A stretch of 64,000 nt of DNA, taken from the NCBI GenBank assembly GCA_964016885.1, contig OZ024751.1, forward strand, positions 20,460,001-20,524,000. The letters run 5' to 3'. Both the position numbers and the translations under genes were made by a program. The stretch comes from Eledone cirrhosa. Lineage: Eukaryota. Below are positions 5,412 through 61,716 of this stretch, piece by piece (positions within the stretch are counted from its first letter, which is position 1; each line of letters opens with the position of its first letter). The notes below the pieces were generated by a model. That model was not told where the DNA came from. It was given only the letters and a program-made list of their open reading frames with translations, and made no database searches.

Positions 5412-5695
5412 TGTAGGAGGTGAGTTTTATTGTAGTACAATAAAGCAATGCAGATATCGGATAAGAAGCACTCTACAGTTTGTAGGACTGGAGTATACAT
5501 AATATAAGATCAAAAGATGGTTAAAGGAGTTCCATGTATTTTATTATGCGCATTTCAAAAACAAACATCATCATGCAATAATATTTGTGTTTTCATCAGA
5601 TAAACACAAATATTATTGCATGATGATGTTTGTTTTTGAAATGCGCATAATAAAATACATGGAACTCCTTTAACCATCTTTTGATCTTATATTAT
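5412..5695 (-). mobile_element. Fold-back hammerhead element, family C
   Basis: Perfect 94-bp inverted arms 5499-5592 / 5602-5695 between (TA)n tracts; long arm extends to about 5412; homolog at 30045-30318. Confidence 0.8.
5537..5604 (-). ncRNA. Minimal type I hammerhead ribozyme
   Basis: Minus strand reads tttat-CTGATGA-stem II (aaacacaaatattatt...gatgatgtttgttttt)-GAAA-TGCGCAT-A|ataaa; stem I tttat/ataaa; palindromic stem III ATGCGCAT. Confidence 0.85.
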
Positions 5696-5961
5696 TATAT
5701 ATATATATATATAAGCAGAAGGGATATTCAATTTGTTGGTAATTCAACAAATATAAATGTTTATAACTGATTCAGAGCACTCGACAAGTTTTTCTGGAGT
5801 ATAATATTCAATGATATTAAATAAATGGAAACTATATTTATAAAACTCGTAAACATATATAACTCGTAAACAAACAAGTGTAAATTTTTAGATACGATGG
5901 GAATATATATATATATACAATGATATTAAATAAATGGAAATTATATTTATAAAACCATATT

Positions 5962-6022
5962 TATTCTATTATATATATTTCAAGGGTACCAAAACTTTGG
6001 TACGCTTTCATCAGATAAAATA
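5962..6022 (-). ncRNA. Minimal hammerhead ribozyme (family D)
   Basis: tattttat-CTGATGA-aagcgtaccaaagttttggtaccctt-GAAA-tatatat-A|atagaata on minus strand. Confidence 0.85.
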
Positions 6023-6049
6023 CAAAGTGTGTTTTATAAATTTGGGCAT

Positions 6050-6250
6050 AACCAGTACTGTACATGCACTTTTTTGATGAGTTGTGGTGCACCTGGGCAC
6101 TGTACACAATATTTCATTATTGTTATTGTTATTATATCATGACTCATACACTGTTCATTTTCCTGACATTTGTACATTATTCTATGTACTATACATGCAC
6201 CTTTGATGAGTTGTAGTGCACCTGAGCACTGTACACAATAATTTCATTAT
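6050..6250 (+). mobile_element. Two tandem 3'-end fragments of a probable CR1/L2-type LINE nested in the family D element
   Basis: Duplicated tgatgagttgtrgtgcacctgrgcactgtacacaat with stem-loop GTGC-acctga-GCAC and an (ATT)-like tail. Confidence 0.45.
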
Positions 6251-6377
6251 ATAAAATACCTTAACGGTTCAAGTTATCCTTGGATAGTAGACTAATAGAC
6301 TATCCAAGGATAACTTGAACCGTTTAAGGTATATTAATTATCCTTGGTCATGTCAAATATTTATAAAACACACTTTG

Positions 6378-6438
6378 TATTTTATCTGATGAAAGCGTAC
6401 CAAAGTTTTGGTATCCTTGAAATATATATAATAGAATA
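6378..6438 (+). ncRNA. Minimal hammerhead ribozyme (family D)
   Basis: tattttat-CTGATGA(6386)-aagcgtaccaaagttttggtatcctt-GAAA(6419)-tatatat-A|atagaata. Confidence 0.85.
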
Positions 6439-6636
6439 AATATGGTTTTATAAATATAGTTTCCATTTATTTAATATCATTGTATATATATATATATATA
6501 TATATATATATATATATATATATATATATATATATATATATATATATATATATATATATAATATATATATATATATATATATATATATATATATATATAT
6601 ATATATATATATATATATATATATATATATATATAT

Positions 6637-57840: not shown

Positions 57841-57901
57841 TATTTTATTATACGTATTTCAAGGGTACTAATATTTTAGTACGCTTTCGTCAGATAAAAT
57901 A
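57841..57901 (-). ncRNA. Minimal hammerhead ribozyme (family D, CUGACGA)
   Basis: tattttat-CTGACGA-aagcgtactaaaatattagtaccctt-GAAA-tacgtat-A|ataaaata. Confidence 0.88.
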
Positions 57902-58430
57902 CATCAACAAACCAAATTACTCATTGTTTATATATATATATATATATATATATATATATATATAAATCATGCTTAATATAGAAATGGCTACTACAGGACT
58001 AGAACTATTTCATTCAAAATAAATCGTCAACAGTCTTTCTAAAACTGTTGTGTATATATATAGTTCTTTATCTCTAAAGTCAAGCCGGAAGGAGCAGAAC
58101 GTTCATTATGATCAATAGCGTTCCATCCATGACCAGCCATGTTTGTTGATATATTGATTTATTCCCAGATCTTATTATCCAATGTTACCGACATTTATTT
58201 GGGTTAAGACAGCAGGGTTGTGATTTGAGGGACAAGTGGTTGATATTTATAACAAAGTGAAATGACCATAAAAGTAGCTGACCCTCCAGTTTGGTTGTGA
58301 CGGCGGAGTTATCCTACCAATGTCACTGTTAATGTGTTTTACTCATTAAATTTCAGTTGGATTGTATAAGGTTCGCAATAGGAAACATAAAAAGGGCGAA
58401 AAATAACAGCAAACGTTATTAAATATCCAA

Positions 58431-58595
58431 GAGAGTCGGACGCCATGCTTTCCAGCATAGTTACGTCCCTTTACGGTCTGAGTTCAAATCCCGCCGAGGT
58501 TCACTTTGCCTGTTATCCTTACGGGGTCGATAAAATAAAGTACCAGTAATGTACTGGGAAATTGCTGGCCTTGTGCCAAAAGTAGAAACAGTTAT
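58431..58595 (+). mobile_element. 5'-truncated SINE family A with probable TSD
   Basis: gttattaaatatccaag occurs immediately before and after the copy. Confidence 0.85.
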
Positions 58596-60374
58596 TAAAT
58601 ATCCAAGGGAAAGGGAAAGCGTGTATCTAGGGTAGAGGGCTGTCGACAAACTCTCTACCCTCAGTCCTGGGTGTATATCTCATGCTGCACCCCCGCGGAC
58701 AGAATGGTGGTGGACAACCAACGGTACGCGCTTCATCAGCCACTCAAACACATGGGTGTTCCTTCCTCGGGCGGGAAACACTCTTCACAATTTGGCAGAG
58801 GAGGACATCAGAGATCTCGACCTGTGACCTGCAGGAAAAGGAATCCGGTCGATCAAGTCTCTCACGGTATTTGGATTTATTTCTCCACTCCTCTCTTCTT
58901 CCCCACCCCCCTCCGCGTTACGGGTTGCAGTGCCCCGGGTTGATGGCCGAAATGACAAAGCTAGAAGCGGAGGAGCTGTCGCAGACACGACTAATGTTAA
59001 CTCGTGAATTAATTCTCCTTCCTTTCTGCCTCCCACACGAAGAATTTCAGAAATGCTAAGTGAAGGAACAAATACGAAAGTCAAATAATATATATATCCT
59101 TATATATATATGTATGTATTTACATATACATATATGTACATAAATACCTATATATACAGATACACACACACACACATATATATATATATATATATATACA
59201 CAGACACACACACACATCAACCCACCTCGTTTGTCAACACCTTTCAACATATTTTACAAAACTACAAATTGTTTCATTTGATTTCATTTTTTTTTTAAAT
59301 TAATTTTACTTTATTTTAGATTGAATTTTATTTAGTTTATAATTACTTTTCTTATAACATATGTACACACACACACACATATATATATATACATGTGTGT
59401 GTGTGTGTATGCATATGTATATATATATATATGTGTATATATATATACATATATACATATATATATATATATATATATACATATATACATATAAATATAT
59501 ATATATATATATATATACATATATACATATAAATATATATATATATATATATATATATATATATATATATATGAATTTATATATATATATATATATATAT
59601 ATATATATATATATATATATATATATATGAATTTATATATATATATATATGTATATATATATATGTATATATATATATGTATATATATATACATATATAT
59701 ATATATATATATATATATATATATGTATTTATATATATATATATATATACATATATACATATATATATATATATATATATATATATGTATTTATATATAT
59801 GTAATATATTTTATTGTTTTTATTTTTTTATTTTTCATAATTTATAGATACATTTATATTAGGCTGTCTGGTCTGACAACCTAATACTGACCCCTCCCCC
59901 CCCCTCCCACCTAATTTCTGTATCTTGATCTTGAAATGTGTGTACCAGTGTGTTTATGTGAGTGACTTAATTTCTGTTTGCTTATGATTTTATATCCACA
60001 TATATAAATGTGAGTGGGGGGTGTGTGTGTGTTTGTGTGTTCGTGGTTATGTGTATATTTATATATATACGCACATGTATGTGTGATTATACTGATATGT
60101 GTGAGTATGAAAAAAATATATTTATATGCTTGACTACATAAGTATCATTGCGTATCTTATCAGCGCATTAAGCTTACAGAGATATTAACCTTGAAATTTT
60201 TTATTTGCATCCATCTTTTTAGTATGCACATACATATTATACACACATTATTGTAAAATGTGTGTAGGGTTTTACATGTATATACACACACCAAACTGCT
60301 TTTTAACCCTTTGTGTTTTCATTGGTCAATTTTGAACTGATATTTTGAATTGTTGTTATTATCAATAAATATAC

Positions 60375-60529
60375 TTCATTATTTCTGAAGACGGCGTATA
60401 TATGAGTTAGGTATGTATATTTAATCTTGATAATTTGTATAATTTTGTATAATTTTGTACATAGATCTGTTAAATATGCATACCAATTATAGCACATATA
60501 TACCCTAGAAACGATCGTTAAATAGTGAA
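60375..60529 (+). ncRNA. Hammerhead ribozyme with very long stem II (family J)
   Basis: ttcattattt-CTGAAGA(60385)-about 115 nt-GAAA(60508)-cgatcgt-T|aaatagtgaa; 10-bp stem I; palindromic ACGATCGT. Confidence 0.8.
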
Positions 60530-61287
60530 CTTTTTTTGTTTAATATAAGGAATTGTTTGTTCATTATTTGTTTAATATTTTATATATATATATATATATA
60601 TGTATATATATATACATATATACATATATATATATATATATGTATTTATATATATATATATATATATATATATATATATATGTGTGTGTATATATATATA
60701 TATGTATGTATTTATATATATATATATATATATATATATATATATATATATATATATATATATATATATATATATATATATGAATATGTATATATATGCA
60801 TTTACCTGGTGGAGGTTCCGTTTTATAAGAAGGAAAGAGGTGACAGGGTAAAGATCGAGAATGTTCTTCGACAATACGTCATTCCTTAGTCAGGTGTCAA
60901 TGTTGAGGACTACATGATTGTCACCTGAATAAGGTGCGTTTATGTACGTATGTATATATATGATGTGTATGTGTGTATATATATAGATGATGGGGAAATT
61001 TCTTTTATATCCAAGCACTTATATATATATATATATATATATATATATATATATACGAGTATATATATATATATATATACGAGTATATATATATATATAT
61101 ATATATATATATATATATATATATATGTAGGTCTGTGTGTATATATATATATATATATATATATATATATATATATATATATATATACATGTAGGTATGT
61201 GTATATACATATATATGTCTCTAAGTACACACATATATATATATATATATATATATATATATATATATATATATATATATATATACA

Positions 61288-61716
61288 CAATATATTAACA
61301 AATGGAAACTATATTTATAAAACCATATTTATTTCATTATACATATTTCAAGGACACCAAGTTAAATTATGGTGTGCTTTCATCAGATAAAATATAATAT
61401 AGATCAGTTTTATAAATAAAAGAATGCGACCATTTTTGTTGGAAGCTCCCGGATAGTCAGAAATGGCCGCATTCTTTAAGGGTATGTCAATATTTATTTA
61501 TAAAACTGATCTATATTATATTTTATCTGATGAAAGCGCACCATAATTTAACTTGGTGTTCTTGAAATATGTATAATGAAATAAATATGGTTTTATAAAT
61601 ATAGTTTCCATTTGTTAATATATCGTATTTTTACTCCAATAATTTGTTGAGTGCTTTATATCAGTTATAAAAATATTTGCCTGTTGTATCCCAACAATTT
61701 AAATAGAACTTCTACA
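61288..61716. mobile_element. Complete family D fold-back element with hammerheads at 61330-61394 (-) and 61519-61583 (+)
   Basis: Arms about 61290-61419 / 61495-61624; CTGATGA-aagcgcacca...tggtgttctt-GAAA-tatgtat-A; long tail to 61716 with TTGAGTGCTT; (TA)n on both sides. Confidence 0.85.

What the first reader, a model, noticed from the sequence alone, without database searches (positions are those of the whole stretch)
5537..61583. Compensatory changes preserve ribozyme stems and a palindromic stem III
Seen: in related C/D copies stem III reads ATGCGCAT (5546), ATATATAT (6422) and ATACGTAT (57850 and about 30177). Unrelated families have ACGATCGT, ATGATCAT, ACAATTGT and ACATGT, all self-complementary. 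D stem II covaries: GTACCAAA/TTTGGTAC, GTACTAA/TTAGTAC, GCACCA/TGGTGT. Established: hammerheads with very short palindromic stem III cleave efficiently as dimers. Inference: selection acted on RNA structure in the master elements, and activity probably needs tandem or intermolecular dimers.
Basis: partly seen in the sequence, partly recalled or inferred. Interest (0 to 1): 0.7.

Follow-up and report, generated by a model that had tools for sequence, protein, structure and literature searches.

The report
Penelope hammerhead ribozymes under structural selection
These short motifs are the predicted self-cutting RNA ends of a known kind of jumping gene, present in tens of thousands of copies; their base pairs were repaired step by step as the element evolved, which suggests the fold matters for its spread, and they likely cut only in pairs, as already proposed for this class.

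Summary
The motifs are real. They are type I hammerhead ribozymes in the pseudo-LTRs of Hydra-clade Penelope-like elements. Families C and D have about 19,000 and 20,000 pattern matches in the genome, and full-length units put two copies 3.7-4.2 kb apart around an RT/GIY-YIG ORF. Stem II covariation holds: three pairs rank 1, 2 and 8 of 1,485 column pairs. A tree built from the RT region orders the changes as a ladder through G·U intermediates. That form pairs only through G·U, which points to selection on RNA. One family is not palindromic. The window's own copies are inverted, truncated remnants that cannot form tandem dimers in cis. Palindromic stem III, covariation and the dimer model are all in print (Cervera and de la Peña 2014). 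'Efficient' cleavage is overstated: Penelope dimers cut weakly in vitro. The scan has reported this system several times elsewhere in this genome. Known kind; the time-ordered ladder is the modest addition.

The parts
5537..5604 (-). Family C type I hammerhead; core 5599-5593, stem III ATGCGCAT 5546-5553, predicted cleavage after 5545; stem I cut to 5 bp by the inversion joint
   Evidence: 97% identical over 116 nt to the pLTR of full-length unit L171
5588..5700 (+). Inverted, core-less second arm of the same family C insertion (stem III at 5641)
5962..6022 (-). Family D hammerhead, complete; stem III ATATATAT 5971-5978; left arm of an inverted pair
   Evidence: 91-93% identical to ORF-linked L206
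6378..6438 (+). Family D hammerhead, complete; core 6386-6392, stem II 6393-6418, stem III 6422-6429, predicted cleavage after 6430; right arm of the pair, ends in (TA)n
16060..16185 (.). Inverted pair of another family: 16102- has the core but stem III ACAATTCT; 16168+ has ACAATTGT but no core
   Evidence: same family recurs in the genome
30110..30330 (.). Core-less inverted pair related to family C (about 80% identical); stem III ATACGTAT (30177) and ATACATAT (about 30260)
40198..40240 (+). Small hammerhead with ACATGT stem III; core C3 changed to U
43090..43470 (.). Inverted pair of the long-stem-II ACGATCGT family; core cut by the inversion joint
57841..57901 (-). Family D hammerhead, complete; CUGACGA core, stem III ATACGTAT 57850-57857; early-branching subfamily
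   Evidence: 98% identical to L174; tree position
60375..60529 (+). Complete type I hammerhead with a 116-nt stem II, 10-bp stem I and stem III ACGATCGT (60511)
61330..61394 (-). Family D hammerhead; stem II ACACCA/TGGTGT, stem III ATATGTAT (pairs with itself only through G·U); left arm of an inverted pair
61519..61583 (+). Family D hammerhead; stem II GCACCA/TGGTGT (G·U at the first pair), stem III ATATGTAT; right arm, with the longer 3' extension
   Evidence: 98% identical over 263 nt to the pLTRs of full-length unit L207
62500..62745 (.). Inverted pair of the ATGATCAT family; core only in 62659+, which has G at the cleavage position

Best explanation
These are type I hammerhead ribozyme motifs in the pseudo-LTRs of Hydra-clade Penelope-like retrotransposons, whose stems were kept paired by stepwise changes through G·U intermediates in the amplifying lineages, and which likely cut only when two copies pair through the self-complementary stem III. 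SHOWN: full-length units carry the same motif in two direct repeats 3.7-4.2 kb apart around an RT/GIY-YIG ORF; three stem II pairs covary; lineage-level changes keep pairing while private changes break it; position 7 of the core takes all four bases while the other core positions vary only in scattered copies. INFERRED: in a transcript that spans both repeats, the weak 2-bp stem III of each copy opens and the two copies swap strands to form one 8-bp helix (a double hammerhead), probably helped by the element's own protein. That would cut after AUA at both sites and release a unit-length RNA starting about 195 nt before the ORF. The window's copies are 5'-truncated, tail-outward inverted remnants in (TA)n and are likely inert, because a read-through RNA is predicted to fold into one long hairpin.
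For: Element link: L061, L185, L171, L172, L207, L217. Clade motifs match PMC8557442 section 11 and its supplement. Covariation: 55 cells with a change on both sides against 17.7 in shuffles, and 2-11 in slid controls; ranks 1, 2 and 8 of 1485. Shared versus private states: 13 of 23 versus 4 of 36 keep pairing, Fisher p = 0.0003, states not independent. RT ladder with G·U intermediates at three stem II pairs. Loop counts ATGT 12,177, ATAT 7,650, ACGT 575, ACAT 61. 17 different self-complementary stem III words in a scan that left the loop free. Closing monomer stem III costs 2.9 kcal/mol; the double hammerhead is 2.6-4.8 kcal/mol below two monomer minimum folds for four family D copies. Cores fully paired to the antisense arm in read-through folds.
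Against: No cleavage or expression data. RNAalifold found no consensus structure on the raw alignment (0 pairs). Only 3 pairs covary, on few independent events; the two measures that count pairs or pair types were not above shuffles (204 and 242 of 500). The commonest stem III has the weakest self-duplex (-2.2 kcal/mol against -10.5 for GCGC). The energy gain ignores the cost of closing a 4-kb loop. One recurring family has a non-palindromic stem III (11 of 303 hits). Two insertions carry ATACATAT in both arms, so a template without the palindrome may have been copied. Hammerheads with a 2-bp stem III plus tetraloop cleave as monomers in invertebrate retrozymes (PMC7229834, passages). Hammerhead mutants did not impair insertion in vitro in another Penelope clade (PMC11167929).
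Confidence: 0.7

Rival explanations
1. The hammerhead is selected but works as a monomer, folded by the element's protein or by loop contacts. The palindrome is kept for another reason, such as pairing two RNA templates for the two-ended insertion.
For: A lizard Penelope hammerhead is protein-assisted (PMC11167929). A 2-bp stem III with a tetraloop is the form found in monomer-active invertebrate hammerheads (PMC7229834). The dominant loop gives a very weak duplex. A non-palindromic family exists. Tail-outward pairs dominate: 25 of 30 neighbour pairs within 1 kb.
Against: Loops are self-complementary in 18 of 20 multi-copy clusters, against about 0.15 expected for a tetraloop (the clusters over-split related families). 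The U-A closed monomer stem is unfavourable.
Confidence: 0.2
2. The apparent compensation is a mutational artefact: CpG decay turns ACGT into ATGT and ATAT, and template switching repairs hairpins in one step, with no selection.
For: ACGT, ATGT and ATAT lie on the CpG decay path. One window pair shows ACGT and ACAT. Fold-back joints are common in these insertions.
Against: Decay in DNA should give ATGT and ACAT alike, but the counts are 12,177 and 61. Family C keeps GCGC in 94 of the first 100 listed matches (counted by eye). ATGT sits between two ATAT grades on the RT tree. G·U intermediates were amplified as subfamilies, which one-step repair would skip.
Confidence: 0.04
3. The fold is selected as a binding or priming structure for the RT; catalysis is vestigial.
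For: Cleavage was not needed for insertion in vitro and no RNA ends were seen at the site in lizard data (PMC11167929). Family D has atypical features: A-U at the base of stem II, a C·C mismatch in 118 of 128 copies, and an AUA site.
Against: In 234 copies matched by a pattern that left the core free, only position 7 varies at subfamily scale (T 204, C 14, A 9, G 7), as catalysis predicts (most of these loci were first picked through an intact core).
Confidence: 0.06

Closest known systems
Hammerheads in pLTRs of metazoan Penelope-like elements (Cervera and de la Peña 2014, PMC4209133; parts 1-2 of 4 read)
   Same: [quoted passage not shown]
   Different: Family D has A-U rather than G-C at the base of stem II, no bulge after position 9, a fixed C·C mismatch, an 8-bp stem I, and a G·U quasi-palindrome as its main loop. 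Copy number is far above the roughly 9,000 reported there for Xenopus.
Hydra clade of C-terminal EN+ PLEs (Craig et al. 2021, PMC8557442; section 11, passages and supplement rows read)
   Same: RW[K/R], DKT, CxCX5C linker, CxxC and CxH near the end, no CCHH, canonical hammerhead, (TA)n targets, inverted 5'-truncated copies and a one-sided tail.
   Different: Units here are 3.7-4.2 kb, against under 3 kb in general there. The hammerhead listed for Hydra-1_Obim has a different sequence and stem III, so C and D are other families.
Lünse, Weinberg and Breaker 2016/17, small PLE hammerheads that cleave as dimers (PMC5785218; not held, seen only as a title and a citing sentence in PMC6765202)
   Same: By its title and the review's summary: PLE hammerheads with a very short palindromic stem III act as dimers.
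   Different: Not readable here; whether it tested G·U loops or these families is unknown.
Amphibian satellite-2 / non-LTR retrozyme hammerheads (PMC7229834, passages; Forster et al. 1988 as cited there)
   Same: Weak stem III with a palindromic tetraloop; dimers cleave better than monomers; about 126,000 motifs in axolotl, similar to the excess of about 130,000 generic core matches here.
   Different: Those are 330-350 bp non-coding tandem repeats, where neighbours are close. Here the partners are 4 kb apart around an ORF.

Membership tests
Type I hammerhead ribozyme | CUGANGA and GAAA core, UH cleavage site | tested here: met
   Met in 6386+, 6014-, 57893-, 61386-, 61527+, 60385+, 5599-; not met in 62659+ (G17), 40204+ (C3U) and the core-less arms
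Type I hammerhead ribozyme | Three stems with stem I open, supported by covariation | tested here: met
   97% of cells paired; three stem II pairs change on both sides; stems I and III vary on one side only
Type I hammerhead ribozyme | Match to an Rfam hammerhead model | tested here: not met
   0 hits at gathering score; none among the 150 of 432 rows shown at E<=10
Type I hammerhead ribozyme | Self-cleavage activity | not testable with these tools
   Needs an assay
Penelope-like element (EN+) | Direct pLTRs holding the hammerhead and flanking an RT plus C-terminal GIY-YIG ORF | tested here: met
   L061 repeats 3,676 bp apart, GIY-YIG PF01541 E 1.5e-4, just under the curated cut-off; L207, L217, L185, L171, L172. 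No PLE ORF was recognised among the window's 93 frames of 120 aa or more
Penelope-like element (EN+) | Inverted 5'-truncated copy and one-sided tail | tested here: met
   25 of 30 neighbour pairs within 1 kb are tail-outward inverted; extension on one arm at 61527+
Hydra clade | RWK-type motif, DKT, CxCX5C linker, CxxC/CxH, no CCHH | tested here: met
   RWR, SDKTNN, CNCRxxxxC, CSLCVEE, CKH in L061, L201 and others, compared by eye with the published alignment
Hydra clade | (TA)n target preference | tested here: met
   Copies end in (TA)n in the window and in fetched loci; seen, not counted
Hydra clade | Placement inside the clade on an RT tree with reference elements | not tested
   No reference sequences were available as tool-held records
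Non-LTR retrozyme | Short head-to-tail repeats with a hammerhead in each unit | tested here: not met
   Family D: only 3 direct neighbour pairs within 1 kb among 135 copies, all between different subfamilies
Dimer-dependent (double) hammerhead | Self-complementary stem III/loop 3 | tested here: met
   Met for C (Watson-Crick) and D (Watson-Crick or G·U)
Dimer-dependent (double) hammerhead | Activity depends on a second copy | not testable with these tools
   Energy estimates only

The most novel reading that the evidence does not exclude
Family D is a dated, rung-by-rung record of RNA compensatory evolution in one master lineage, showing that the ribozyme is needed for amplification in vivo. 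The weakening of stem III to a G·U quasi-palindrome makes the double hammerhead a two-end check: it would cut only when both pLTRs of a full-length unit are on one transcript, or are brought together by the element's protein dimer, and so select complete templates.
Probability: 0.25. Interest if true: 0.55.

Novelty: new member of a known kind. Interest (0 to 1): 0.27.

Why it matters
The role of Penelope hammerheads is open. One paper suggests they may merely parasitize the element (PMC8557442); another found them dispensable for insertion in vitro (PMC11167929). A lineage in which every rung keeps the fold and the core argues that they do matter for spread. The natural rungs (ACGT, ATAT, ATGT loops; G-C, G·U, A-U pairs) are a ready-made series for testing the dimer model. 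The system itself is known.

Tried and rejected
Rfam: no hammerhead hit; the E-value rows shown are mostly microRNA models matching hairpins and microsatellites. Inverted-repeat search was swamped by (TA)n. RNAalifold gave no structure because the aligner put the bulged subfamily out of register; inner stem II pairs were therefore left out and re-registered by script. CpG decay and one-step hairpin repair were considered and rejected for lineage states. Retrozyme reading rejected for family D. In-cis dimers of the window's pairs rejected: opposite strands. Expression search: no RNA holder listed; no reads were laid. L202 first looked like a discordant rung; its hammerhead belongs to a separate insertion ending in (TA)n. 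Loci L001-L030 were left out of the family tallies as biased toward the window copy; they were included. Lünse et al. could not be read. Literature searches for a G·U ladder in these ribozymes: 'hammerhead, compensatory, Penelope, wobble' gave 0 papers; 'Penelope-like, hammerhead, covariation' gave 8, none evidently on this by title; subscription papers are not covered.
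Full report
1. The observation. The window is AT-rich animal DNA full of (TA)n, at G000:C11:20460001-20524000 of a 3.0-Gb genome. They belong to type I hammerhead motifs: stem I, CUGANGA, stem II, GAAA, a short stem III, UH. A relaxed scan finds 7 such motifs in the window and 0 in the reversed window; two more with weak or altered stems (5599-, 62659+) came. Rfam has no hit at gathering score.

2. Copy number. The family D core pattern has 16,982 matches against 0 in the control. 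The family C pattern has 19,118. A generic hammerhead pattern has 146,372 against 16,705 in the control. These are pattern matches, not curated copies.

3. The host element. [quoted passage not shown] L207, L217 and L185 (family D) and L171 and L172 (family C) have the same layout. The ORFs carry RWR, DKT, CxCX5C, CxxC and CxH and lack CCHH, which are the diagnostics of the Hydra clade (PMC8557442 section 11; supplement alignment rows). An RT fragment has 150 of 150 scored matches at 81-100% identity, some in frames of 600-740 aa. Window copies match these pLTRs at 91-98%. C and D are related: same stem I, RT 50-63% identical.

4. Stem II covariation. I collected 135 family D copies by position from loci L031-L140 and the window. 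Most were picked by a pattern that fixes the core and the outer stem II letters, so variation there is under-sampled. On 109 distinct rows and 17 named pairs, 97% of cells pair and 55 cells change on both sides, against 17.7 in shuffles and 2-11 in slid controls. The number of covarying pairs (3) and of pair types was not above shuffles (204 and 242 of 500). After re-registering a bulged subfamily (128 of 135 rows parsed, 83 unique), pairs 6 (C-G/U-A), 2 (A-U/G-C) and 5 (G-C/A-U/G·U) rank 1, 2 and 8 of 1,485 column pairs. Non-majority pair states shared by 3 or more copies keep pairing in 13 of 23 cases, those in two copies in 5 of 16, and private ones in 4 of 36 (Fisher p = 0.0003 for shared versus private; states are not independent). 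This is the pattern expected from selection in amplifying lineages followed by neutral decay. RNAalifold on the raw alignment found no structure.

5. A ladder from the RT. To get a tree independent of the ribozyme, I used about 800 nt of RT from loci with an adjacent hammerhead (30 rows; 28 family D plus 3 family C rows as outgroup, dropping two duplicate rows). The tree is a ladder with 19 of 28 inner branches strongly supported. Read from the family C side: pair 6 goes U-A, U·G (L205), C-G, and back to U-A at the tip; pair 5 goes G-C, G·U (L208), A-U; pair 2 goes A-U, G·U (L190), G-C; the loop goes ACGT, ATAT, ATGT, ATAT. Each intermediate rests on one ORF-linked locus, though the states recur elsewhere (pair 5 G·U in 15 of 128 rows, pair 6 U·G in 3 of 128; further rows in the listings). 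Exceptions: L192 and L102 (C·A at pair 6), L205 (A·C at pair 5), L088 (U-A at pair 5), L176 (C-G and A-U on an early branch, loop ACAT). L202 is a mis-link. For L206 the label came from its inverted arm (G-C), not its downstream arm (A·C). I ran no AU test, so the order is a reading of the tree.

6. Stem III. Genome counts with one pattern are ATGT 12,177, ATAT 7,650, ACGT 575 and ACAT 61. ATGT pairs with itself only through G·U; ACAT, its mirror on the other DNA strand, cannot pair. A 200-fold asymmetry is not what CpG decay or a DNA-level palindrome predicts, although ATGT may trace to a single event. Family C keeps GCGC in 94 of the first 100 listed matches. Within family D the loop shows no two-sided covariation signal. 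Across families the signal is strong. A scan of 1.5 Mb of loci (overlapping, and biased toward C and D) that left the loop free gave 303 distinct hits against 2 in the control; 18 of 20 multi-copy clusters and 28 of 32 single hits are self-complementary, with 17 different words, 4 of them needing G·U. The chance for a tetraloop is 0.075, or 0.15 with G·U. One cluster holds both ACGATCGT and ACAATTGT, a true two-sided change. One family (AGAACT/AGGACT, 11 hits in two clusters) is not palindromic.

7. Do they need dimers? Closing stem III in a family D monomer costs 2.9 kcal/mol. A strand-swapped double hammerhead is 2.6-4.8 kcal/mol below two monomer minimum folds for four family D copies, and 12 kcal/mol above them for the damaged 62659+ copy. 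These are secondary-structure estimates only. The window's pairs cannot do this in cis. They lie on opposite strands, as do 25 of 30 family D neighbour pairs within 1 kb, and read-through RNA is predicted to pair all 7 core bases with the antisense arm. Only full-length units place two same-strand copies on one transcript. Against a strict need: the dominant loop has the weakest duplex, and two insertions carry ACAT in both arms.

8. What is known. Cervera and de la Peña (PMC4209133, parts 1-2 of 4 read) report hammerheads in PLE pLTRs, covariation, the palindromic positions 15.2-16.2 and loop 3, opposite-strand pairs and the dimer model, with low activity even in dimers. A review (PMC6765202, passages) repeats this and cites Lünse et al., which I could not read. 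Axolotl retrozyme dimers cleave much better than monomers, while invertebrate retrozyme monomers cleave well (PMC7229834, passages). A lizard PLE hammerhead needs the element's protein and is dispensable for insertion in vitro (PMC11167929, passages and half of the main text). Earlier scan notes on other pieces of this genome describe the same system; none held all the words of my second look-up.

9. Verdict. The inference of selection on RNA structure is supported. The dimer claim is plausible, published and untested here. These are new families of a known kind. The additions are the RT-dated ladder through G·U intermediates and the dominance of a G·U quasi-palindrome. Interest 0.27.

Noticed in passing
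window 60375-60529 (+): Complete hammerhead with a 116-nt stem II; related long-stem families (60-116 nt) recur in fetched loci.
   Followed up: partly
L189:7137-8264 (+): Three tandem hammerheads 571 and 556 bp apart with a 10-nt palindromic stem III ACTAATTAGT, retrozyme-like.
   Followed up: no
family D stem II, fourth position (e.g. window 6396): Fixed C·C mismatch in 118 of 128 copies.
   Followed up: partly
L176:2818(-)/5623(+); G000:C3:227412705/227412813: Both arms of an insertion carry the non-pairing loop ACAT, so the template may already have lacked the palindrome.
   Followed up: no
L069:1122, L035:1822, L065:3652 and others: Recurring hammerhead family with a non-palindromic stem III (AGAACT/AGGACT); a natural control for the dimer model.
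   Followed up: no
whole genome G000: About 130,000 more generic hammerhead core matches than the control, similar to the axolotl figure.
   Followed up: no
window 50903-52445 (+): Two overlapping frames (381 and 135 aa) that look like the end of a non-LTR retrotransposon ORF; no Pfam hit.
   Followed up: partly
window 22104-22316 and 12690-12750: Inverted repeat around (TA)n and a related copy near 12733 with GAAACATATGT; possibly another hammerhead-bearing end without a core; not examined.
   Followed up: no
window 20508 (-) and 11435 (-): CUGAUGA followed by a long hairpin-like stretch and GAAAC, not meeting my type I criteria; not examined.
   Followed up: no
L201:2482-4713 (+): 743-aa uninterrupted Hydra-type frame next to a family D hammerhead, with the RT YRDD motif altered.
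   Followed up: no
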